A stretch of 64,000 bases of DNA from a virus (Duplodnaviria > Caudoviricetes), in the IMG/VR virus record IMGVR_UViG_3300037483_000648, positions 708 through 64,707 of that record. One strand, written 5' to 3'. This document shows, piece after piece, positions 200 through 22,288 of this stretch. The notes under the pieces are model-generated. The model saw nothing but the letters and a program-made list of their open reading frames with translations, did no database searches and was not told the origin of the DNA. Position numbers and translations under genes: made by a program. Position 1 is the first letter of the stretch. The number at the start of each line of letters is the position of its first letter.

Positions 200-619
200 A
201 TGGCAGGATTTGAATTTGGAGAAGAGTTGGTTGTACTGAAGAAACTTGATGTAGGATCAACTCGATATAAACCTGGCGATGACTTTGAATATGAAGGACT
301 GGATTTGGATTTTGTCGAAAAACTTTTATCTCAAAGGATACTGATTCGAAAGGCTTTAGTTTCTCAGAGGCTGATGAGCCAATTGAAGTCATCAAAAGTG
401 GCCAAAATAATCAAAAACGTCAAGGGAGTCAGAATGGCTATTTCCTGGCCCTCTGATGAAGATTTGCCTGAAGGAGTGCTAGACTATAGGTTTTCTAAAA
501 ACGACGCACTACAGGCTGATTTAAAAGAAGGAATCGAAGAACAAGAACCACCCGCCAAGAAAAAAGTTAAAACACCTCGTCGGCGGGCTAAAACTACACT
601 CAAAAAGGACTTTGAATAA
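200..619 (+). CDS. Hypothetical protein directly after capsid gene
   Basis: 139-aa ORF, AGAGGA RBS, TAATG coupling to next gene, basic C-terminus. Confidence 0.6.
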   Translation: MAGFEFGEELVVLKKLDVGSTRYKPGDDFEYEGLDLDFVEKLLSQRILIRKALVSQRLMSQLKSSKVAKIIKNVKGVRMAISWPSDEDLPEGVLDYRFSKNDALQADLKEGIEEQEPPAKKKVKTPRRRAKTTLKKDFE

Positions 620-1191
620 TGACACGAAAAGCAATTGAAACAGGTTCTCCGTGGAATGAGGCTAATATAGAAGCCAACTTCACAGAGATATATGCGGAAG
701 CTGTCCCTGTATCATCTATGGCCCCTGCTGCTGGATTTCTCGGTACTGGTACTGTATATAAAAACTCTGTTAAGCAAGATGGGGATTTTATTAAGACCCA
801 AATTTATATTGATCTGACAGGCGCTAAATCATCTACTACTGATCTGGATATTATCGGAAATACCGGCGCGGCCCATATAGGTCAAATTACCGCAGCAGTT
901 AATGGAGCTATTATCGGCGGCACAATGACTTGTCTTGAAGTTCCCGCCACAGGGGCTGATGATATTGATTTGTATTCGGCTACAGTAGGAACAGGTGCTT
1001 TTGATGCCGGTATAGAGGCATTGGTAGAAACCGCACTTGTTACTGCCGGAGAAGCATGGGCGCTTGGAGTAACTAAAGCACTTTCTGGCCTACCTGCTGC
1101 AAATAGTTATCTGTATCTTGTTGGTGGTGAAGGTGGGACAGCAGGAACTTATACAGCCGGTAAGTTTATGGTCGAGTTGATCGGCGTATAA
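619..1191 (+). CDS. Putative virion (head-associated) structural protein
   Basis: 190 aa, Gly/Ala/Thr-rich beta-type sequence (IKTQIYIDLTG...DIDLYSA...YLYL...YTAGKF), position after capsid gene. Confidence 0.55.
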   Translation: MTRKAIETGSPWNEANIEANFTEIYAEAVPVSSMAPAAGFLGTGTVYKNSVKQDGDFIKTQIYIDLTGAKSSTTDLDIIGNTGAAHIGQITAAVNGAIIGGTMTCLEVPATGADDIDLYSATVGTGAFDAGIEALVETALVTAGEAWALGVTKALSGLPAANSYLYLVGGEGGTAGTYTAGKFMVELIGV

Positions 1192-1227: not shown

Positions 1228-1482
1228 ATGATAGGAAATTACGCTGGAATGATTATGCCTGGGTTCGGATCAACAAAGGTTACTCCGAATGATAATATAG
1301 TTTTTGATCCACCGTCAAGGGGGTTGTGGATAGGAACTGCTGGAAATATCTCCGTGACTTTCCCTGATGGGACTGCTGCAGTTGATATGCCTGCACAGGC
1401 AGGATTTTTCCCTTACTTTGTAATCCAGGTCAATGAAGGATCAACTCCAACAGCAGCAGATAACATTTGGACAATCGTATGA
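1228..1482 (+). CDS. Head spike base protein (RcGTA Rcc01079-like)
   Basis: 84 aa; VTPND...RGLWIGTAGNISVTF...AG.FP..V..V pattern typical of this family; AAGGAG RBS. Confidence 0.7.
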   Translation: MIGNYAGMIMPGFGSTKVTPNDNIVFDPPSRGLWIGTAGNISVTFPDGTAAVDMPAQAGFFPYFVIQVNEGSTPTAADNIWTIV

Positions 1483-1627
1483 TGATTTCTTTGTCTATCA
1501 GCCAATGAGTGTTCTTGTTTCTGAAAACAGCGGGGAAAATATTGCAGCGGTGCCTAATCTCGACGACTTATTAATTTCTGAGGTCGACGAAATGACTATT
1601 GATGAAATTGATACAACTTTAATATGA
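1479..1627 (+). pseudogene. Short acidic ORF, apparently frameshifted (MMISLSIS / PMSVL...LDDLLISEVDEMTIDEIDTTLI)
   Basis: ATGA overlap at 1479 opens MMISLSISQ*; adding one C at AGCCA (1500-1504) joins it to the frame ending at 1627. Confidence 0.4.
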
Positions 1628-1634
1628 GGATGCT

Positions 1635-3470
1635 ATGAGACGCATTTGGTATGTATTTATTATCCTGTTATGTTCGCTGAATGCCTCATGGTCTTTGGCT
1701 GCTCAGGAAACACTTTTTGAATCTGTACAAGAGTTAGATGGGCAACCAGGAACATCTAAGGGAGCAGATTGGCGGCTTACTGATTTTGCCAACTTTGCCT
1801 TGCAGAATGATAATAATGATGAGTTATACGGCCATAAAGTAGTTTCCGGCTCGGTAACTGGGGATACTTTAACCCTTGTTTTGGCAGATGCCTCAACGAT
1901 TCTAGTGGATGTTGCTACTTTGCTCGATAACACAGATGCTCAAACCGTCACTGCATTTAATTTAAATTCTTCGACTAATATCCTCACATTAACATTATCT
2001 GGCGGGAATACATCGACCGTTGATTTGTCTGGCTTGGTCGGCACTGATGGCCTTATTGATGCTCCAAGTGATGGGGCTGTATATGGTAGGAAAGACGGCG
2101 CCTGGGTTGCTGTTGAGCCACTTAAAGGCGCGGATGATAATTATGTAACTGATGCCGAAAAAACTGTTCTGGGAAATACTTCTGGAACTAATACAGGAGA
2201 TCAGGATTTAAGCGGTAAGCAAGACACTTTGGTTAGTGGCACAAATATCAAGACAGTCAACAGCACCTCTATTCTTGGACCTGGTGACATTGCTGTAACA
2301 GGCAGTGGCATTACAGATGGTAACGCAGCAGGCGATTTAATAGAGTGGGACGGTGATTCCTGGGAGCCTGTTACCCCTGACGAAGTATCATTCGTAGAAC
2401 CATTATCTTACGATGACACGCTGAAAGAGGTGTCAATTGATACTACTGGATTGGGCGGAATCTCTCACGTTGCAAGCGGCAATCCTGATGATGGAGCTTG
2501 TAACTGGAACACTGCTGATTTTATATTAAGATGCCGAACAGGAGCTACGGTTTACGCCAGTGCTGCAATGACTCTTGAAGCTACGCTTGACATAACTGCT
2601 CCAACAGCAAGCTCATTCGCAACCGACTCAACTGGATTACAATACAGTTTCACCGCTTCTGAAACATCAACGGTCGATTGCACTAAACTCACAGCAACAT
2701 GGGCGAATGCCGGAACTGTCACCGATTTTACTGGTACAGATTCCCCCTGTATTAGTTCAACTCCTGTTTATTCTGACGACACTGGAACTATGGCAGGGGC
2801 ACAGGGTTTTCTTATTGACACTGCAACTAATGAGAGTATTGCGTTTAGTGGGTTGAGTATTGACAATAGCTTGAATGAGACTGTTGCCTCAACGATAGGG
2901 AGTATCGTTCCAGATTTTAGTTATGATTTTGAAGATGGTACTACAGGGGATTTGACTCTTAACACACCTACTGGTTCTACTATTACGGTTTCAGATGTTG
3001 AGCCTCTTTCGGGTGTCTACAGCGCTCAGATAGATATTAATGAGGCGGTAACGATTGTGCCATATATGAGTAAATCTTTTACAGGTACTACGGACTATGC
3101 AACTAATTTTAAATTTGCACTAAGCAGTAATTTTAGATCAGTCAATACAGGAGGTGTTGTTACACTGTCACGATTCTACAATGGCGCAGCAACTGTTAGC
3201 GGTTTGCAGCTTAAGTGGAACGGTGCCGACATGGTATTGGTCCTGGATGAATCTATTGTAATAACCCGTGGAGTTGAACATATGATCACACACAGGATAA
3301 CATCAACCAATATGTATGTATATCTAGACGGTGAGTTGGTTTATACATCCCCGGATACTACCCATAGTATTCCCAATAGTATACGAGTTGGGTTAGTATT
3401 GGGTCACAGCTTTAATACGGGTATTTCAGCTAAATTTGACGACTGGGGGATGGGATCATATGTTGAATAA
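1635..3470 (+). CDS. Signal-peptide-bearing fibre-like protein with C-terminal lectin/LamG-like domain
   Basis: MRRIWYVFIILLCSLNASWSLA signal peptide; fibre motifs DAPSDGAVYGRKDGAWV and KQDTLVSGTNIKTVN; beta-sandwich-like C-terminus. Confidence 0.65.
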   Translation: MRRIWYVFIILLCSLNASWSLAAQETLFESVQELDGQPGTSKGADWRLTDFANFALQNDNNDELYGHKVVSGSVTGDTLTLVLADASTILVDVATLLDNTDAQTVTAFNLNSSTNILTLTLSGGNTSTVDLSGLVGTDGLIDAPSDGAVYGRKDGAWVAVEPLKGADDNYVTDAEKTVLGNTSGTNTGDQDLSGKQDTLVSGTNIKTVNSTSILGPGDIAVTGSGITDGNAAGDLIEWDGDSWEPVTPDEVSFVEPLSYDDTLKEVSIDTTGLGGISHVASGNPDDGACNWNTADFILRCRTGATVYASAAMTLEATLDITAPTASSFATDSTGLQYSFTASETSTVDCTKLTATWANAGTVTDFTGTDSPCISSTPVYSDDTGTMAGAQGFLIDTATNESIAFSGLSIDNSLNETVASTIGSIVPDFSYDFEDGTTGDLTLNTPTGSTITVSDVEPLSGVYSAQIDINEAVTIVPYMSKSFTGTTDYATNFKFALSSNFRSVNTGGVVTLSRFYNGAATVSGLQLKWNGADMVLVLDESIVITRGVEHMITHRITSTNMYVYLDGELVYTSPDTTHSIPNSIRVGLVLGHSFNTGISAKFDDWGMGSYVE

Positions 3471-5094
3471 ATTACTTATTCTGCTGGCCCTTTTTACTGT
3501 CCCAAATATAACGTGGGGGGCAGCTTGCTCTACAATAATAAATCAAGGGTCTACTGAATCGTGCGACAGTATAACGCAGTACGGTATAACGTGGAGCCTT
3601 TCTCAAAACCATACTGTTGGACAATTTATCAACGGGGATTACTGGGCGGTTGACCCTGGAACTGGAGTTAATATTATAAATATAACGCCTGGATACCAGT
3701 ATACAACCGATCCATCGTACAATGCACAACCCCGTCATATAAATGGGTCGATGTTGAATACGAGCAGTAAACCTCAAGGATTTGATGGTCAGAGAAACTA
3801 CGATGGAACCAAAAACGTAGGGATCGGGATAAGCTCAGAGACACCTCTTGTATTGGCCAGTGGTGATTCTCTGTTGTCTTCTATCAGTAATCCGGATGCC
3901 GGATTATCAGTATATGAGAGTTATGTTGAAGTAGTGGCGATACTAACGGTTGTTGCCTCCCCTCCACCAGAGGGGACTTTTCGACCATCTTGGTATGGAG
4001 AAAAAGTTTTTTATAATTGGTCAACTGTTGATTTAAGTGGGCTTAAAAATATTGAGTACGCAGGTAAGCCTAATTCTACCAATTATATAGACAGGACCAC
4101 AGGGCCAATCACTTTTTTTGGTGGGTGGGAAACCAGGTTTATCACTCCCATGACGATAGAGGATAATTATTATTGGTCAAACTACACTGCTGTGCCAATG
4201 GCGTTAATGATGAATTTAAACTATCCACAAGCTGAGAAAGAACAGATGGCTGTTAATATAATCCAGATGGGTATAGACTTTTTTGGATTTATAAGGGCCG
4301 GGGGTGGGTTTGCTCCTGATGCGGGTGTAAACTTAGGTTACAAATTGCCTGTTGTTTATGCTGCCGTATTGCTTAATGCCACGGATATGCTAGACGCTTT
4401 AGCTAAAAGCGGTAAGCGCAGATTCGAGGATGGATACACAACTGGGACAAGCGCACCAAGCGATATGGTGTTTTTTTCCGAGGACTCTACTTTTTACGTA
4501 GACCAAGCTTTAGTTGACATGACTAATAACCCTACGTGGATAGGTTATTGCGAAAGAGCTAATAAATCTTGTACTGATCTACCTTATTCCCAAGACATGC
4601 TAGATATGCCAGAGTGGGCCAGTCAGGGTTTTTACGGATTTAGTTCTTCAACTTCTTCATGGACCGCTGCATATAGAACTATAAGTAACGGTGGAGGGGT
4701 CTTCCCTGGAATATCGATAGCTGTAAGGCTGTTAGAAGGGGGTGTGGCTGCTTGGAACAACCCATCGCTTCTTGACTATGCTGATCGGTATATGGCTATA
4801 ACCAATGGTGATCCCGATCCTTTTGGGTATGCAGTGCATGGTGAAGTGTCGGGATCACGTCCAGGAGGTTTGATAGGCTACATGTACGACACCTACCGCA
4901 TGGACTATCCATATCCGCCGTACGAAATCGCTGAGCCAACCTGCTCAGACCTCACCCAAAACGGCGATGAAACAGGAATAGACTGCGGGGGAAGTTGCCC
5001 TCCATGTGAAACACCCGTGCAAGGACTTCGTAAAGGAGCGTTCCGAGTGCCAGGGGCATCGAACCCAGTGAATTTCGTAGAAACAGTAGAGTGA
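3460..5094 (+). CDS. Secreted protein with Cys-rich C-terminal repeat
   Basis: Likely start MLNKLLILLALFTVPNITWG (signal peptide); SITQYGITW...GQFINGDYW domain; CSDLTQNGDETGIDCGGSCPPC at 4942-5007. Confidence 0.65.
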   Translation: MLNKLLILLALFTVPNITWGAACSTIINQGSTESCDSITQYGITWSLSQNHTVGQFINGDYWAVDPGTGVNIINITPGYQYTTDPSYNAQPRHINGSMLNTSSKPQGFDGQRNYDGTKNVGIGISSETPLVLASGDSLLSSISNPDAGLSVYESYVEVVAILTVVASPPPEGTFRPSWYGEKVFYNWSTVDLSGLKNIEYAGKPNSTNYIDRTTGPITFFGGWETRFITPMTIEDNYYWSNYTAVPMALMMNLNYPQAEKEQMAVNIIQMGIDFFGFIRAGGGFAPDAGVNLGYKLPVVYAAVLLNATDMLDALAKSGKRRFEDGYTTGTSAPSDMVFFSEDSTFYVDQALVDMTNNPTWIGYCERANKSCTDLPYSQDMLDMPEWASQGFYGFSSSTSSWTAAYRTISNGGGVFPGISIAVRLLEGGVAAWNNPSLLDYADRYMAITNGDPDPFGYAVHGEVSGSRPGGLIGYMYDTYRMDYPYPPYEIAEPTCSDLTQNGDETGIDCGGSCPPCETPVQGLRKGAFRVPGASNPVNFVETVE

Positions 5095-5246
5095 TGGATT
5101 AGAAAATACTATCTGTCATTTTATGTTAACTCAGATATTTTAGACTTCTCGGCATTACTTGATTTCAGTGGCTGGAGAATAAGGGCTTGAACCTTGATAA
5201 GCGGAGTCAGATAAAAAAAAGAAATGAATTTTAATAGAGAGAAGAA

Positions 5247-6626
5247 ATGAAGAAACCTTTAATAATTACCAGTCTAATCCTACTGACATCGCCTTACTCC
5301 TTTGCTGCGCCAGGACAAGGATTAACATCGTGGGATGCCCAAATAGAACCTGTAGCAAGTTCTGATTTAGTTGGTATTACGGATACATCTGATACCACTC
5401 AATCAGATAGTGGCTCATCAAAGAAAGCTACTATGACTCAGCTCGGGGCTTTTATGGCAACACTGTTTACTTCGAAAACGGGCAGCGAAACAATTGCAGG
5501 GGTTAAGACATTCTCTTCTTCCCCAATAGTGCCTACCCCTACAACAGATATGCAGGCGACTAACAGAAAATTTGTTCTCGATAATGTTGGAACTGGGACG
5601 GTAAATGTTGTCCAGACAGTTGAACCGACAGGATCAACCTCTTCTGCACCGTCTGAAGCCGCCGTTGGTGTTGGCTTGGCGAGTAAGCAGAATACTGCGG
5701 ATGTGCAGGACGTTTCTGTTGATGTTGAAGAATTACTTGGAGCTACGGATAAAACGGATATTCGAGATATTATACAAGTTCCACATTCCTCTGAAATAGC
5801 TGATTTACAAACTCAGATTAATACAATCGAGATAGGTACATCCGTAGTTAGTGTGCCTATCAACTCCAACTCCCCATGCACAACAGGGACAATAGCCTAC
5901 AGTTTAGTCCCATTGAGAAAATATGAGTGTTTTGCCAATGCCAACTGGAAGTACTTTGACTCTACTGGTTTAGTCGATTGGGATGACGAAACTGTAGAGC
6001 AAGGGCAATTATTTTATCTCGATTTTAACTTAACACAAGTTGAAGATTTGGCTGGTGGTTGGACAATCATTGCACCAACAGGTACAGTTACAACCGATAG
6101 TACCGTCTATGGAGTTCTTGAGGGCACTGAGTCGGCAAGGGTACATAATAATGCTGCGGAGATGAACGCTTTAGTCTCACCAGACTTTGCTGATGCCAGC
6201 GTGATCTACTACCGAGCTTTAATACAAGCATCTGCAACTAATACATCAGGCCCCTTCGGATTTAGGTTCTATAACGACACCGAGGGGACTTTGGAAAGCC
6301 AGGGATATACTCATATATCATCAGGCTTTAGGGCTACACATGGGTCAGCACCGACCTCCGACCCAACCCCATTTGCCGCAGGGGTACCGCATTATGTATG
6401 TGGGAAGTTTCAGATAGCATCAGGTGTAGGAGCTAATGACGGACAACATATTGTAAGTGTCAGCGATACATCCAATCCAGCTAATGGCAGTACTATCTCA
6501 GTAACTAATGGGACGGGCTATCTACCAGTAAATCGCATCTATCTTGCACAATACAGTAGCAACGCCATGTTAATAGACATAGCTGAAGCCTCAACAGAGG
6601 TAATACCAGAATGTGGAAACATGTAG
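5247..6626 (+). CDS. Signal-peptide-bearing fibre-like protein
   Basis: MKKPLIITSLILLTSPYSFA signal peptide; fibre motif TIAGVKTFSSSPIVPTPTTDMQAT; beta-rich C-terminal domain. Confidence 0.65.
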   Translation: MKKPLIITSLILLTSPYSFAAPGQGLTSWDAQIEPVASSDLVGITDTSDTTQSDSGSSKKATMTQLGAFMATLFTSKTGSETIAGVKTFSSSPIVPTPTTDMQATNRKFVLDNVGTGTVNVVQTVEPTGSTSSAPSEAAVGVGLASKQNTADVQDVSVDVEELLGATDKTDIRDIIQVPHSSEIADLQTQINTIEIGTSVVSVPINSNSPCTTGTIAYSLVPLRKYECFANANWKYFDSTGLVDWDDETVEQGQLFYLDFNLTQVEDLAGGWTIIAPTGTVTTDSTVYGVLEGTESARVHNNAAEMNALVSPDFADASVIYYRALIQASATNTSGPFGFRFYNDTEGTLESQGYTHISSGFRATHGSAPTSDPTPFAAGVPHYVCGKFQIASGVGANDGQHIVSVSDTSNPANGSTISVTNGTGYLPVNRIYLAQYSSNAMLIDIAEASTEVIPECGNM

Positions 6627-7678
6627 TAGCACTAATTTTACTACCTATAGCTGCTCAGGCGCAAACTGTTGTAAATCATGACTTCAATAATAGCAGCTTT
6701 GGCCCTCTTGGAGCACAAAGTTTCTGGTCAATTCAGACCACGGGAGGCATGAGCAATTCCCCGGCTGCAAGACTAACTGTTAGCGAGTCGGGAACCGCCG
6801 GAAAGGCCCTGACACTTAATGTCAGCTCATACGCCTCTAGTGTTTGGTGGGTTGAGTTTGATGTTAGAATACAAAATGAGCCAATAGGTGGTAGTAAGTT
6901 TATTAAGCTTTTCGCGGATACCATTCCTACGTCAAATAATATGACTGTTGGAATAAATCCTGACGCTAGTCCACAAACCAATGTTGGAGTCAGTTACTAT
7001 GGAGATACAAACTGTTCTGATCCATGGTCCGGCCCTAAGACATATAACGATTGTGGCTCGATATGGGAGAGAACAGGTGGGGTGATCGACCTGAGGGGCG
7101 ATGTATGGCGTCATTATGAGGTAATGGTGAAACGGGCCGACCCTGGTACGAGAAATGGGGAAACCAAGGTCTGGTTTGATGGAACTCTTCACTCCCATAT
7201 AACTAACCAAGATAGTAACCCCTCACCTATAGATCCCTCACCTGGCTTCCATAGCATAGAGCTTGGTGGATACGTCCGTGAATACCGACCTGACACAGGA
7301 GTTGGGTTTTTAACTGGTACTACTCCAACTTGGTATATGTGGCTTGATAATGTTTACATAGGAACAACAGAGAAGGGCACTCCAGAAGTCCTAACCTGCC
7401 ACCCCGATCTAGATAATGATCTCTATCCAGGGTCAGGGAGTCAATCCGTTGAAACCTGCCCAACAAATTATTATACCTACGATCATTTTGCTTCGATGAT
7501 TGCTGACTGCAACGACAATAATGTCTCTATCAATCCTGGAGTAACTGAAGTATGTGGTAATGGGATAGATGAAGACTGTTCCGGATCAGATACGGTGTGC
7601 GGTGCTGCTGCTGAAGTTGGTTCTTTTTGGCTCTATAAAAATTCTGAAGGTAAGGCATATGTTCCTGCTGCAAACTAA
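6611..7678 (+). CDS. Secreted lectin/polysaccharide-lyase-like protein with MopE-type putative metal-binding repeat
   Basis: MWKHVVALILLPIAAQA signal peptide; WRHYEV...GETKVWFDG jelly-roll pattern; DLDNDLY...DCNDNNVSINPGVTEVCGNGIDEDC repeat. Confidence 0.65.
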   Translation: MWKHVVALILLPIAAQAQTVVNHDFNNSSFGPLGAQSFWSIQTTGGMSNSPAARLTVSESGTAGKALTLNVSSYASSVWWVEFDVRIQNEPIGGSKFIKLFADTIPTSNNMTVGINPDASPQTNVGVSYYGDTNCSDPWSGPKTYNDCGSIWERTGGVIDLRGDVWRHYEVMVKRADPGTRNGETKVWFDGTLHSHITNQDSNPSPIDPSPGFHSIELGGYVREYRPDTGVGFLTGTTPTWYMWLDNVYIGTTEKGTPEVLTCHPDLDNDLYPGSGSQSVETCPTNYYTYDHFASMIADCNDNNVSINPGVTEVCGNGIDEDCSGSDTVCGAAAEVGSFWLYKNSEGKAYVPAAN

Positions 7679-7688
7679 GGGGTCAATC

Positions 7689-8078
7689 ATGATAAAAAAA
7701 ATAATATCGATACTTGTAATTACCTTTTTATTTGGCTGTTCTCCACAAAAACAATATATCTTGACCGAACAGCAAATTGACAGCCTGAACGGAAGTACAG
7801 CTATAGCCCTATGGAAAGCAAGTAAAGCTAAAACAGATGAGTGTTCAAGCCCAGCAGTTGTTAAAGCTATTGCCGGAATGTTTTTTGTCAGAAATTATTC
7901 TGATTGCTGCTGGCAACATGATTTCGATTATCACTATGGGTATATTTATGGAATAAGCAAAGAGCAAGCCGATTATAGTTTACATGAGTGTGTAGATGCA
8001 AGTAATAATCCAATTGTGGCAGATGTAATTTACAGTTTTGTTAAAGTTTTTGGTGATGAATTTTATAAAGGAGATTAA
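7689..8078 (+). CDS. Lipoprotein with prokaryotic phospholipase A2-like domain
   Basis: Lipobox LFG-C after hydrophobic stretch; TDECSSP and CCWQHDFDY (His-Asp) motifs, ADxxL, YSFVKVFG. Confidence 0.7.
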   Translation: MIKKIISILVITFLFGCSPQKQYILTEQQIDSLNGSTAIALWKASKAKTDECSSPAVVKAIAGMFFVRNYSDCCWQHDFDYHYGYIYGISKEQADYSLHECVDASNNPIVADVIYSFVKVFGDEFYKGD

Positions 8079-8080
8079 AA

Positions 8081-8263
8081 ATGCCAACAGTAAAACAACA
8101 AGTATCGTCGAAAACAAATCAGGTTATGGTTGTATGTGGTGCTGTTCTTTCTATCTTGCCGACTTTTGGCATTGAGATTGGAGCGGAGGCAGCTGCAGGA
8201 ATAATGGCACTTGTTGGCATTATTATGAGACAGGTCACTAAAGAACCTTTATCGGATAAATAA
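8081..8263 (+). CDS. Putative holin
   Basis: 60 aa, two hydrophobic segments, SKT...IIMRQVTKEPL pattern, lysis-module position. Confidence 0.6.
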   Translation: MPTVKQQVSSKTNQVMVVCGAVLSILPTFGIEIGAEAAAGIMALVGIIMRQVTKEPLSDK

Positions 8264-8640
8264 TGGAAAGTAAAATAATCTCTATTGTCGGAATGGTTGC
8301 AGGTTGGGTTTTGTCGGCAATAGCTCTTGCAGCATGGATTGGAAAACTAGGGAACAGAGTGGACAAGTGCGAAGAAGATATAAAAGGTCTTTCTAGTGCT
8401 GTCACACTCCCGCAATGCATAGAAAGAATGGATTCGATAAAATCAAACTCTAATTTGCAATTTAACCATGCTGCTGAACGACAAATAGAGATTAAAAAAC
8501 TAATCCAAGAACAAAATGAAGCAGTTTTGTTGCTTAATGAACAGAATGAAAGGAGATTGGCAAAAGTTCAGGAATTAGCTGAGGAGCGTTTTGATAGATT
8601 GGTTGGATTGTTGGTCAAGAACATAGAGAATAATAAATAA
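8263..8640 (+). CDS. Membrane-anchored coiled-coil protein (holin/antiholin-like)
   Basis: N-terminal TM helix followed by heptad-rich region; TAATG coupled to the holin-like gene. Confidence 0.5.
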   Translation: MESKIISIVGMVAGWVLSAIALAAWIGKLGNRVDKCEEDIKGLSSAVTLPQCIERMDSIKSNSNLQFNHAAERQIEIKKLIQEQNEAVLLLNEQNERRLAKVQELAEERFDRLVGLLVKNIENNK

Positions 8641-8658
8641 TTTAAATCGGGAGTAAGC

Positions 8659-8859
8659 ATGTACAAATTATCTGTAGATTTTAAAAAATGTAAAGATTGC
8701 TGGACATGTGAATCTCTCCTTCCTCGATTTCGTTCTGTATATGGTGGGTCGTTGTTAATTAGTGAAATAAGAATTGATGATGAGGAAATCAGGGCGGCAG
8801 CAAGAAGGGTACAAGATGGCTGCCCTAATGGCGCGATAAAACTTCAGAGGGTTGAATAA
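8659..8859 (+). CDS. Single-cluster Fe-S ferredoxin
   Basis: 66 aa, CKDCWTC (CxxCxxC) plus distal GCPNGAI; only four Cys; GGGAG RBS. Confidence 0.75.
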   Translation: MYKLSVDFKKCKDCWTCESLLPRFRSVYGGSLLISEIRIDDEEIRAAARRVQDGCPNGAIKLQRVE

Positions 8860-9317
8860 TGTTTAGGCCCGATCGTCTACGTGAAGTTATTCGGTTTTCC
8901 TTACGACCAATCAGTAAATGGTCTGTCGAAGCCGAGGAAATGATGATGATGATAGCCGCTCATGAATCTTATCTAGGTATGCACTTGAAACAAATCGGTG
9001 GCGGACCTGCTCGTGGAATTTATGGTATGGAGCTTGCCACGGAAAAAGATATATGGCAGTCATATCTTGGCTACAAGTCAGGGCTGGTTGGAAAAATAGA
9101 GGCGATGTGTGGGGTTGGTGGATCGAATGAATACCAGCTTACATATAACCCGATTTATAGCACAATAATGTGCCGGATTAAATTGTTGCAATGCCCTGGC
9201 TTATTGCCAAAAGGCACACAAGCAATGGCAAAATATGCAGACGATTTTTACAATGCCGGGGGCAAAGCTACTCCTGAAAAATATATAAATGATTATAAAC
9301 GGCTGGTTCTCGCATGA
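8859..9317 (+). CDS. Putative endolysin, lysozyme-like fold
   Basis: AAHES.LG..LKQIGGGPARGIYGME.AT motif with candidate catalytic Glu; lysis-module position. Confidence 0.6.
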   Translation: MFRPDRLREVIRFSLRPISKWSVEAEEMMMMIAAHESYLGMHLKQIGGGPARGIYGMELATEKDIWQSYLGYKSGLVGKIEAMCGVGGSNEYQLTYNPIYSTIMCRIKLLQCPGLLPKGTQAMAKYADDFYNAGGKATPEKYINDYKRLVLA

Positions 9318-21919: not shown

Positions 21920-22288
21920 ATGGGTGATCTTTCCAAAGACTTTTCCAGAAGTGAATATGCTTGCAGATGTGGTTGTGGATTTGATACTGTTGATGTTGAG
22001 CTGAATAGAGTTATGCAGGATTTGAGAGACCACTATGGAAGAAGGATCACTATAACAGGTCCGAATAGATGCTTTACTCATAACCTTCGGACTCCTGGGG
22101 CAGCAAGGGATTCTCAACACCAGTTTGGCAAGGCAAATGACTTTATTGTCGATGGGGTTTCTGCAGAAGATGTGTTTGACTATTTGAATTTGAAATACCC
22201 GAGCAGGTACGGCATAGGGTTATATACTGATCCTGCTCGGGTGCATCTGGACATCAGGCCTTACCGGGCACGATGGCGGATGCCTTAA
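21920..22288 (+). CDS. Peptidase M15A-family endolysin
   Basis: FSRSEYACRCGCG, RC..HN, SQHQFGKAND, VHLDIR zinc-peptidase motifs. Confidence 0.85.
   Translation: MGDLSKDFSRSEYACRCGCGFDTVDVELNRVMQDLRDHYGRRITITGPNRCFTHNLRTPGAARDSQHQFGKANDFIVDGVSAEDVFDYLNLKYPSRYGIGLYTDPARVHLDIRPYRARWRMP

What the first reader, a model, noticed from the sequence alone, without database searches (positions are those of the whole stretch)
1635..7678. Four tandem virion-fibre-like genes that all carry Sec signal peptides
Seen: four consecutive large ORFs between the head and lysis genes each start with a classic signal peptide (basic n-region, hydrophobic core, small-residue cleavage site). Two also contain motifs typical of trimeric phage fibres (DAPSDGAVYGRKDGAWV and KQDTLVSGTNIKTVN at ~2058-2262; TIAGVKTFSSSPIVPTPTTD at ~5490-5560), and three have lectin-like beta domains. 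Established: tailed-phage capsids and fibres normally assemble in the cytoplasm without signal peptides. Inference: these may be exported adhesins that mature in the periplasm and dock on virions at lysis, or that remodel the infected cell surface. Either would be an unusual assembly or host-manipulation system.
Basis: partly seen in the sequence, partly recalled or inferred. Interest (0 to 1): 0.82.

Follow-up and report, generated by a model that had tools for sequence, protein, structure and literature searches.

The report
Phage fibre and enzyme genes with export signals
A complete 64.6-kb long-tailed phage genome puts bacterial secretion signals on four fast-evolving fibre-like and sugar-cutting proteins next to its lysis genes, so this sugar-targeting gear probably folds outside the cytoplasm, where phage particles are normally built.

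Summary
Window 1635-7678 encodes four large proteins (611, 544, 459 and 355 aa). Each starts with a short basic/hydrophobic/small-x-small leader. A fifth gene (7689-8078) has a lipoprotein leader. No other credible gene in the genome has one.

Four related phage contigs keep a leader on every one of these genes they contain, even where the leader sequence or the whole protein body has been replaced. All 21 closest homologues of p4 have one, and conservation begins exactly at the predicted cleavage site. The mature proteins carry 4, 8, 4 and 8 cysteines in close pairs, whereas the other virion proteins have 0-1.

p1 and p3 are built from phage tail-fibre modules. p4 has a polysaccharide-lyase-like jelly roll, and two of its bacterial relatives sit beside polysaccharide-synthesis genes. 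p2 belongs to a large, mostly secreted family absent from Pfam and PDB.

The genes form two overlapping fibre-enzyme pairs. They are mosaic between phages whose flanking genes are 92-100% identical.

Export is well supported; the proteins' fate is not. I favour free or envelope-acting sugar-targeting complexes (0.42) over docking on virions after lysis (0.30).

No trained signal-peptide predictor and no experiment was available. This scan has noted the same theme on many other phage genomes.

The parts
1228..1482 (+). 84-aa small beta protein, a candidate head-spike base, directly upstream of the cluster
   Evidence: phrog_12296 'tail fiber protein', 1.5e-7. Weak match to PDB 8cjz_h 'Spike Base Protein', E 0.07 over residues 18-81. 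93-98% identical in relatives.
1479..1627 (+). 9-codon micro-ORF (MMISLSISQ, 1479-1508), whose stop overlaps the start of a 41-aa acidic ORF (1505-1627)
   Evidence: Split in the window, L001 and L024; fused into one 48-aa ORF in L020. An analogous 48-aa acidic ORF precedes the p1-like gene in the rearranged relative L025.
1635..3470 (+). p1, 611 aa: leader (about 23 aa, SLA-A / AA-Q), fibre modules including a foldon-like motif, a Cys-paired knob, and a variable C-terminal beta domain
   Evidence: 94% identity over residues 1-419 then an unrelated C-terminus in L001; only residues 1-303 shared with L024.
3460..5094 (+). p2, 544 aa: leader (WGA-A), an N-terminal beta domain plus an alpha-rich domain of a large uncharacterised secreted family, and a C-terminal 4-Cys module with a conserved tail. 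Overlaps p1 by 11 nt.
   Evidence: phrog_34846, 1.5e-25. 3305 family representatives. No Pfam or PDB sequence match. Model pLDDT 85 with no clear fold match. The slot holds an unrelated 679-aa protein in L024 that keeps only the shared C-terminal 58 aa.
5247..6626 (+). p3, 459 aa: leader (SFA-A), a tail-fibre-type N-terminal domain and BppL_N-like motif, a Cys-paired knob, and a variable C-terminal domain
   Evidence: 95%, 52% and 69% (residues 1-196 only) identity in relatives.
6611..7678 (+). p4, 355 aa: leader (AQA-Q), a polysaccharide-lyase-like jelly roll (residues 19-255), and a Cys-rich MopE-type module with a conserved C-terminal tail. Overlaps p3 by 16 nt.
   Evidence: Pfam MopE motif 2e-10 and weak PF14099. 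Family alignment A1. Model and Foldseek hits to PL36, PL14 and PL20 lyases, 2e-9. Bacterial homologues lie beside polysaccharide-synthesis loci.
7689..8078 (+). 129-aa lipoprotein (LFG-C) with a CCWQHDFDY motif; the fifth exported protein and the first gene of the lysis-like block
   Evidence: phrog_6098, 5.7e-11. Conserved in all relatives including L025.
8081..9317 (+). Lysis-like block: a 60-aa two-hydrophobic-segment protein, a 125-aa membrane plus coiled-coil protein, a 66-aa Cys protein, and a 152-aa probable wall hydrolase
   Evidence: Sequences. phrog_3108 for the 152-aa protein. The same slot holds a PF07486 Hydrolase_2 protein in L024 and a near-identical 126-aa protein in L020. The functions are inferred.

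Best explanation
The block is a late-expressed, Sec-exported set of sugar-targeting proteins arranged as two translationally coupled pairs: p1 fibre with p2 enzyme, and p3 fibre with p4 lyase-like enzyme.

Each protein is made with a cleavable leader and crosses the inner membrane. It folds and forms its disulfides in the periplasm, or outside the membrane if the host has a single membrane.

The adjacent lysis genes then release the proteins with the progeny. Free or bound to envelope debris, the fibre parts bind the host's variable surface polysaccharide and the enzyme parts cut it. That would loosen the capsule or slime around the burst, stop progeny sticking to debris, and open the way to neighbouring cells.

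Shown here: the leaders and their conservation, the paired cysteines, the fold of p4, the gene pairing, and the mosaic variability.

Inferred: actual export and cleavage, enzyme activity, complex formation, and the fate after lysis.
For: Leaders:
- Five consecutive genes carry leader-type N-termini, and no other credible gene in the genome does.
- Leaders persist in L001, L020, L024 and L025. This holds even where the leader sequence differs or the protein body is replaced by an unrelated one.
- In the p4 family all 21 closest homologues have a leader. Conservation starts at the predicted cleavage site, so a downstream start would remove conserved residues.

Cysteines and domains:
- Mature p1-p4 have 4, 8, 4 and 8 cysteines in close pairs. 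The tape measure (1753 aa) and the tail fibre (384 aa) have none.
- Domains here and in the swapped variants are of extracellular type: MopE motif, PKD, InlB B-repeat, beta-helix, Laminin_G_3.

Enzyme parts:
- The p4 model matches alginate and glucuronan lyases.
- Two bacterial homologues lie beside loci with glycosyltransferases and a polysaccharide deacetylase; L026 also has Wzy_C.
- 86 of the top 150 p2-family hits have leader-like N-termini.
- One p3-like homologue carries a lipoprotein-type leader, which would tether it to a membrane rather than a virion.

Context:
- The phage has its own leaderless, cysteine-free tail fibre.
- The block abuts the lysis genes. Runs of two or three leader-bearing large proteins next to lysis genes recur in unrelated phage backbones: L022, L023 and L039. 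L038 has three such proteins but no recognised lysis gene on its short contig.
- The p1-p2 and p3-p4 overlaps of 11 and 16 nt, and both pairs staying adjacent in the rearranged L025, argue for fibre-enzyme pairing.
Against: - p1 and p3 keep N-terminal modules that begin the leaderless tail fibres of other phages. Those N-termini stay conserved while the C-termini are swapped, which is the classic pattern of a virion-anchored receptor-binding protein.
- The block follows a candidate head-spike base gene.
- In the cultured Cellulophaga phage phi18:3, three consecutive leader-bearing proteins just upstream of the lysis genes are annotated as structural from virion mass spectrometry.
- No enzyme activity, catalytic residue or complex was tested.
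- No trained signal-peptide predictor was available.
- The host, and so the compartment reached, is unknown.
Confidence: 0.42

Rival explanations
1. Periplasm-matured virion appendages. The proteins are exported and cleaved as above. The fibre-enzyme complexes are nevertheless true parts of the particle. They dock on heads (at the spike base, perhaps through the acidic mini-protein) or on tails once the holin and wall hydrolase have breached the inner membrane and wall, or after the burst. They would then set host range.
For: - The fibre N-termini are conserved and the C-termini swapped, as in virion receptor-binding proteins. The four genes are the most variable in otherwise 92-100% identical phages, while the tail fibre varies only to 78-85% identity.
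- p2-slot and p4 proteins keep a conserved C-terminal tail even when the catalytic body is replaced. This looks like a docking handle.
- The block sits directly after the candidate spike base and the mini-ORFs, and a small protein plus acidic mini-ORF again precedes the p1-like gene in the rearranged L025.
- The p2 domain is part of a leaderless 'minor tail protein' just upstream of the lysis genes in cluster J mycobacteriophages.
- phi18:3 gp085-087 have leaders and are annotated as structural from virion MS/MS.
Against: - I know of no described mechanism for adding exported proteins to tailed-phage particles, and my searches found none.
- Dilution at lysis works against efficient docking.
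- After cleavage, the mature N-termini of p1-p4 lack the alternating hydrophobic peptide that plugs the RcGTA spike base (PMC7296036). The micro-ORF has that pattern instead.
- A p3-like homologue carries a lipoprotein leader.
- In L023 the leader-bearing fibre cassette sits before the lysis and head genes, away from any recognised tail gene in the fetched stretch.
- The phi18:3 proteins are not homologous to p1-p4, and detection by MS does not prove built-in parts.
Confidence: 0.3
2. Envelope remodelling in the still-living infected cell. The exported lectin-like fibres and enzymes bind or cut the receptor polysaccharide as it passes through the periplasm. This would block superinfection and stop progeny being lost on debris. 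It is functionally akin to the receptor-masking lipoproteins Llp and Cor and to phage O-antigen modification (own knowledge).
For: - Export signals and a periplasm-type lyase fold.
- Bacterial p4 homologues sit beside polysaccharide-synthesis loci, where periplasmic trimming enzymes are commonly encoded.
- The variability is consistent with tracking variable glycans.
Against: - The genes are packed on the late strand with structural and lysis genes, and there is no excess of promoter-like or terminator-like sites. Exclusion functions are usually expressed early or from a prophage.
- No integrase was seen in what I examined.
- Long trimeric fibres are an odd form for a periplasmic trimming enzyme.
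Confidence: 0.13
3. Not exported. The hydrophobic N-termini are structural: either membrane tethers or plugs for the pentameric head-spike base, as with the RcGTA head fibre N-terminus. The proteins would then assemble on particles in the cytoplasm.
For: - The RcGTA head fibre binds its base pentamer through a hydrophobic N-terminal peptide (PMC7296036).
- The 84-aa gene weakly resembles a spike base protein and sits just upstream.
Against: - The N-termini have a basic start, a contiguous 10-13-residue hydrophobic core and small residues at -3/-1. They do not have the alternating pattern of the RcGTA peptide, and the core is too short for a stable membrane anchor.
- The same kind of leader is on all 21 closest p4-family members, including the two bacterial ones (L026, L027) that lie beside polysaccharide loci with no phage genes in view.
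- Paired cysteines and Cys-rich modules fit an oxidising compartment.
- The alternating peptide is supplied by the separate micro-ORF.
Confidence: 0.1
4. Passenger genes. These would be recently captured bacterial secreted proteins with no role in the phage cycle, or lysogenic-conversion cargo.
For: The p2 and p4 families are mostly bacterial.
Against: - Synteny, leaders and pairing are conserved in at least four related phage contigs.
- There is heavy domain shuffling rather than decay.
- p1 and p3 are built of phage fibre modules.
- There are no own promoters or terminators above chance.
Confidence: 0.05

Closest known systems
Cellulophaga phage phi18:3 gp085-gp087 (NC_021794)
   Same: Three consecutive large proteins with leader-type N-termini lie directly upstream of the lysis genes of a cultured tailed phage. 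The leaders would expose glutamine after cleavage. gp086 ends in a fibre-knob-like tail.
   Different: No detectable sequence similarity to p1-p4. The record labels them structural from virion MS/MS but does not mention the leaders. They are not placed between head and neck genes.
Bdellovibrio bacteriovorus mosaic adhesive trimer (MAT) fibres (PMC10769870)
   Same: Phage-tail-fibre-like trimers with a signal peptide, a conserved N-terminal part and swappable C-terminal tips, working outside the cytoplasm.
   Different: MATs are chromosomal genes of a predatory bacterium and are displayed on its own surface. Here the genes are in a phage late operon, paired with enzymes and next to lysis genes. 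Homology to the MAT N-domain was not tested.
Conventional phage tail fibres, tailspikes and depolymerases
   Same: Fibre modules (foldon-like and BppL_N-like motifs), a conserved anchor end with a variable distal end, glycan-cutting domains, and mosaic evolution between near-identical phages.
   Different: These normally lack leaders and assemble in the cytoplasm. Most proteins sharing the p1 and p3 motifs lack a leader: 104 of 120 and 113 of 120.
Exported phage proteins: signal-peptide endolysins, T4 antiholin RI (PMC8385771), receptor-masking lipoproteins Llp and Cor, lambda Lom and Bor (own knowledge); leader-bearing unknown genes of Porphyromonas phages (PMC10367356)
   Same: Phage genes that use the host Sec pathway, some of them placed among structural genes.
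   Different: Those are small lysis, exclusion or outer-membrane proteins. None is a large fibre-like or depolymerase-like protein arranged in pairs.
RcGTA head spike (Rcc01079 base pentamer plus Rcc01080 fibre; PMC7296036)
   Same: A small base-like gene next to the capsid genes is followed by fibre genes. A hydrophobic N-terminal peptide acts as the plug.
   Different: The similarity of the base is weak (E 0.07). The alternating plug pattern is on a separate 9-codon micro-ORF, not on p1-p4, whose N-termini look like cleavable leaders.

Membership tests
Cleavable Sec (type I) signal peptide | Basic n-region, a 7-15-residue uncharged hydrophobic core, and small residues at -3/-1 | tested here: met
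   A rule-based screen finds all four proteins, with the strongest cores in the genome; the candidate sites are SLA-A/AA-Q, WGA-A, SFA-A and AQA-Q. No trained predictor was available.
Cleavable Sec (type I) signal peptide | Leader conserved in kind, not in sequence, among orthologues; the mature domain starts at the cleavage site | tested here: met
   Leaders are present in L001, L020, L024 and L025 despite different sequences and swapped bodies. All 21 closest p4-family members have one, and conservation starts at T(I/V)VNHDFN.
Cleavable Sec (type I) signal peptide | Actual translocation and cleavage by signal peptidase I | not testable with these tools
   Needs reporter fusions or N-terminal mass spectrometry.
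Trimeric phage tail fibre or fibritin-like protein (p1, p3) | Recognised fibre domains above family threshold | tested here: inconclusive
   Fibritin_C scores 14 bits against a cut-off of 21. BppL_N scores 17.5 against 25.8. The leader-bearing homologue P0022 passes Fibritin_C with 28.5 bits.
Trimeric phage tail fibre or fibritin-like protein (p1, p3) | Homology to annotated phage fibre proteins | tested here: met
   Short modules only. p1 residues 192-237 are 56% identical to the 'tail fiber protein' of Pseudomonas phage Rollin. There are hundreds of motif-sharing proteins on phage-sized contigs.
Trimeric phage tail fibre or fibritin-like protein (p1, p3) | Trimer formation | not tested
   The complex-prediction tool could not be reached.
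Beta-jelly-roll polysaccharide lyase (PF14099; PL14, PL20 and PL36-like) (p4) | Fold | tested here: met
   The model of residues 19-255 has most 10-residue blocks at pLDDT 80-94. Foldseek finds Aly36B (2e-9, TM 0.57-0.61 by target), a PL14 lyase, PL20 glucuronan lyase and the Chlorella virus lyase vAL-1. Plain lectins of the same fold follow lower in the list.
Beta-jelly-roll polysaccharide lyase (PF14099; PL14, PL20 and PL36-like) (p4) | Sequence membership and catalytic residues | tested here: inconclusive
   PF14099 scores 16.3 bits against a cut-off of 29.9. Some homologues carry a precomputed PF14099 hit. Catalytic residues were not mapped.
RcGTA-type head fibre (Rcc01080-like) | Alternating hydrophobic N-terminal peptide that plugs the base pentamer | tested here: not met
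   p1-p4 have contiguous cores with a basic n-region. The alternating pattern is on the micro-ORF MMISLSISQ.
Moron (self-contained cargo gene such as lambda lom or bor) | Own promoter and terminator; compositional difference | tested here: not met
   Promoter-like and terminator-like sites are no more frequent than in shuffles. GC is 0.43-0.44 against 0.39-0.43 in neighbouring windows. The genes overlap or abut.
Bdellovibrio MAT family | Signal peptide followed by the conserved ~130-aa MAT N-domain | not tested
   Only the architecture was compared, from the paper.

The most novel reading that the evidence does not exclude
The fibre-enzyme pairs are genuine virion appendages that must pass through the Sec pathway to form their disulfides. 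They are added to finished particles only when the lysis machinery merges cytoplasm and periplasm. That would be a two-compartment assembly route for a tailed phage, with the exported parts setting host range.
Probability: 0.28. Interest if true: 0.9.

Novelty: new variant of a known kind. Interest (0 to 1): 0.6.

Why it matters
Textbook tailed-phage assembly is wholly cytoplasmic, and depolymerases are thought to ride on the particle or leak out at lysis. A conserved, fast-evolving set of Sec-routed fibre-enzyme pairs would mean some phages fold their sugar-targeting gear in the oxidising compartment.

If the proteins act free, they are a class of phage-released capsule- or biofilm-clearing complexes with swappable specificities. 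That would be useful for enzyme discovery: p2 is a family of more than 3000 representatives with no Pfam entry and no solved structure. If they join particles, host-range prediction and phage engineering would have to account for an export step.

The case is directly testable in a cultured system with the same layout, Cellulophaga phage phi18:3.

Tried and rejected
- Nucleotide search of the block against 50,697 phage records: no match.
- Host inference failed. The large terminase is nearest to Croceibacter and Cellulophaga phages at 40-43%. The tail tube is nearest to Limnohabitans, Curvibacter and Caulobacter phages at about 40%. The genome scan with the p4 family found only Parcubacteria and Desulfopila genome bins.
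- p2 fold: no Foldseek match in PDB at E 0.001 or better. The independent VIA search gave a best Z of 4.5, with scattered weak rows for alpha/alpha-barrel glycosidases and lyases. I do not call it an enzyme of any known family. The viral structure library returned only two unnamed relatives. The protein-atlas look-up gave no usable lead.
- Profile comparison of the p1 and p3 C-terminal domains with the p4 jelly roll, and with each other: no significant similarity.
- Contexts of two close p2 homologues were on contigs too short to be informative.
- Complex prediction was unreachable on five tries, for a p3 trimer and for a p1 trimer with the p2 tail. No result, so no evidence either way.
- The moron reading is rejected: no own promoters or terminators.
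- Downstream start codons are rejected: they would delete conserved mature residues of p4, and ribosome-binding sites precede the chosen ATGs.

Full report
GENOME AND SETTING

The window is bases 708-64707 of a single 64,707-bp contig with a 127-bp direct terminal repeat, so this is a complete phage genome. The layout is that of a long-tailed, non-contractile phage:
- small and large terminase, portal, head-morphogenesis protein and scaffold-like genes at 56-64 kb;
- a lambda-E-type major capsid gene that wraps the contig ends;
- connector, tail terminator, tail tube, chaperone and a 1753-aa tape measure at 9.4-18.3 kb;
- a short tail-tip module at 18.3-21.5 kb.

Between the capsid gene and the connector genes lies a block of about 9 kb. 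A distant relative with a similar tail tube, Curvibacter phage P26059A, has only an HNH endonuclease gene there.

The block holds, in order:
- a 139-aa and a 190-aa protein;
- an 84-aa small beta protein;
- two tiny coupled ORFs;
- the four genes of the finding;
- a lipoprotein;
- a lysis-like set: a 60-aa membrane protein, a 125-aa membrane plus coiled-coil protein, a 66-aa Cys protein, and a 152-aa protein. In relatives L020 and L024 that last slot holds a different small protein, which carries Pfam Hydrolase_2 in L024.

The ORFs are p1 1635-3470, p2 3460-5094, p3 5247-6626 and p4 6611-7678. For p2 the ATG at 3460 with a GGGGGA ribosome site is the likely start.

Each begins with one or two basic residues, an uncharged hydrophobic core of 10-13 residues, and a small-x-small site (SLA-A or AA-Q, WGA-A, SFA-A, AQA-Q). 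In a rule-based screen of all 133 ATG-ORFs of 60 aa or more, these four have the strongest leader-like N-termini. The remaining hits are antisense ORFs and the 125-aa membrane protein. The next gene has a lipobox, LFG-C. So five consecutive genes are marked for export and no other credible gene in the genome is. I had no trained predictor, so this rests on rules plus comparative evidence.

COMPARATIVE EVIDENCE FOR EXPORT

Four related metagenomic phage contigs carry the block (L001, L020, L024, L025). Every p1-p4-slot protein with an intact 5' end has a leader. (The p3-like gene of L025 is cut by the contig end.) This holds where the leader sequence is quite different, and also where the whole protein body has been replaced by an unrelated one.

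In the p4 family all 21 closest homologues have leaders. The conserved domain starts exactly after the predicted cleavage site, so a downstream start would delete conserved residues.

Of the top 150 p2-family hits, 86 have leader-like N-termini.

After removal of the leaders, p1-p4 carry 4, 8, 4 and 8 cysteines in close pairs. The capsid-proximal proteins, tail tube, tape measure and tail fibre have 0 or 1.

The domains present here and in swapped variants are typical of extracellular proteins: MopE-type Cys motif, PKD, InlB B-repeat, right-handed beta-helix, and Laminin_G_3 (weak).

WHAT THE PROTEINS ARE

p1 and p3 are assembled from phage fibre modules. p1 has a foldon-like motif (Fibritin_C, below threshold). 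p3 has a BppL_N-like motif (below threshold). Both have N-terminal stretches that in other phages begin leaderless fibre proteins. Most proteins that share these motifs lack a leader: 104 of 120 for p1 and 113 of 120 for p3. A minority have one, and one leader-bearing homologue passes the Fibritin_C threshold.

p4 has a well-modelled jelly roll (residues 19-255). Its best structural matches are alginate lyase Aly36B, a PL14 lyase, PL20 glucuronan lyase and the Chlorella virus lyase vAL-1. Plain lectins of the same fold rank lower. Two bacterial homologues lie next to polysaccharide-synthesis loci with glycosyltransferases and a polysaccharide deacetylase; one of them also has Wzy_C.

p2 has a confident model (pLDDT 85) of a beta domain plus an alpha-rich domain. 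It belongs to a family of 3305 representatives that has no Pfam model, no PDB relative by sequence and no clear structural match. Its only matches among cultured phage records are a Microcystis phage and a leaderless 706-aa 'minor tail protein' that sits just before the lysis genes of cluster J mycobacteriophages.

ORGANISATION AND EVOLUTION

p1 and p2 overlap by 11 nt and p3 and p4 by 16 nt, while 152 nt separate the pairs. In L025 the block is rearranged: the lysis genes lie between the pairs, but p3-like stays next to p4-like and p1-like next to p2-like. This points to two fibre-enzyme units.

Among phages whose flanking genes are 92-100% identical, the four genes are mosaic:
- p1 is 94% identical over residues 1-419 and then unrelated (L001), or shares only residues 1-303 (L024).
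- The p2 slot is 99% identical (L020), 42% identical (L001), or holds an unrelated 679-aa protein that keeps only the C-terminal 58 residues (L024).
- p3 is 95% or 52% identical, or 69% over residues 1-196 only.
- p4 is 100%, 51% or 47% identical.

The tail-tip proteins are 96% identical, and the leaderless tail fibre is 78-85% identical over its aligned length. Such shuffling is the signature of proteins that meet variable host surface structures.

THE PATTERN IS NOT UNIQUE TO THIS LINEAGE

Leader-bearing fibre-like proteins, followed by further leader-bearing proteins, occur next to lysis genes:
- at the end of a prophage (L022);
- in a Mu-like phage between Mor and the lysis gene (L023);
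- in another phage contig, L039.
A fourth short contig, L038, has three consecutive leader-bearing proteins but no recognised lysis gene.

In the cultured Cellulophaga phage phi18:3, gp085-087 are three consecutive leader-bearing proteins just upstream of the lysis genes. The record annotates them as structural on the basis of virion MS/MS.

In print I found three relevant items. Leader-bearing unknown genes are reported in Porphyromonas phages (PMC10367356). The exported, fibre-like MAT adhesins of Bdellovibrio are described (PMC10769870). RcGTA has a head spike whose fibre plugs a base pentamer with an alternating hydrophobic N-terminus (PMC7296036). In the papers I read and searched I found no description of exported tail-fibre-like proteins of tailed phages.

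This scan's own notes show that the same theme has been flagged on many other phage genomes, with later checks keeping the observation and pricing the virion-docking reading low. I did not use those odds as evidence.

INTERPRETATION

Export and folding outside the cytoplasm is the part I trust, at roughly 0.85 summed over the readings that include it. The fate afterwards is open.

I rank free or debris-bound fibre-enzyme complexes released by the adjacent lysis genes first (0.42). The reasons are these:
- The enzyme families are mainly bacterial secreted proteins.
- One p3-like homologue is a lipoprotein.
- The phage has its own conventional tail fibre.
- In another backbone the cassette sits away from any recognised tail gene.

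Docking on particles after the membrane is breached comes second (0.30). It is supported by four things: the conserved-anchor and variable-tip pattern, the conserved C-terminal tails of the enzyme slots, the position after a candidate head-spike base, and the phi18:3 annotation.

The remaining readings are less likely:
- Action in the living infected cell's envelope: 0.13.
- A non-export reading, in which the N-termini are structural plugs or tethers: 0.10.
- Passenger genes: 0.05.

LIMITS

No signal-peptide predictor, no expression or proteomic data for this phage, no host, no enzyme assay and no complex prediction were available. The complex-prediction tool could not be reached.

Noticed in passing
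window 1479-1627; L020 462-608; L025 5169-5315: A 9-codon micro-ORF (MMISLSISQ) overlaps the stop of the 84-aa gene (ATGA). Its own stop overlaps the start of a 41-aa very acidic ORF. This split form is found in the window, L001 and L024. One extra base in L020 fuses the two into a 48-aa ORF. The rearranged relative L025 has an analogous 48-aa ORF with an alternating hydrophobic start and an acidic tail, just before its p1-like gene.
   Followed up: partly
window 3460-5094: The p2 core is a family with 3305 representatives at E 0.001 or better. It has no Pfam model, no PDB relative by sequence and no clear structural match despite a confident model. Invariant residues include D60, R175, Q269, D273, E385 and R406.
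   Followed up: partly
window 7689-8078: A 129-aa lipoprotein with a CCWQHDFDY motif and five cysteines heads the lysis-like block and is conserved even in the rearranged relative L025. Its only matches among cultured phages are hypothetical proteins of Mannheimia phages (41% over 59 aa).
   Followed up: partly
window 8859-9317; L020 7840-8220; L024 12256-12633: The last slot of the lysis-like block holds a 152-aa phrog_3108 protein in the window. In L020 and L024 it holds a different 125-126-aa protein, which carries Pfam Hydrolase_2 in L024. This is a non-homologous replacement at one position. A further endolysin-like gene (phrog_894) lies at 21920-22288.
   Followed up: no
window 619-1191: The leaderless 190-aa protein next to the capsid gene starts with the fibre-type motif NIEANFTEIY. 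That motif also follows the leaders of the fibre-like proteins P0035 and P0036. It may be a head fibre or decoration protein.
   Followed up: no
window 1700-1706 and 6659-6664; NC_021794 gp085-087: Cleavage of p1 (AA-Q) and p4 (AQA-Q) could expose an N-terminal glutamine. phi18:3 gp085-087 do the same, as in the Bacteroidota 'Q rule' cited in PMC10367356. Together with the terminase similarity to Flavobacteriia phages this hints at a Bacteroidota host, but the tail tube points to proteobacterial phages instead.
   Followed up: partly
L022 10001-14310; L023 10001-14368: A recurring cassette in two unrelated phage backbones: a leader-bearing fibre of about 600 aa, a leader-bearing protein of about 357 aa, a leaderless Cys-rich protein of about 360 aa, and a small leader-bearing protein. 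It lies beside the endolysin gene in both.
   Followed up: partly
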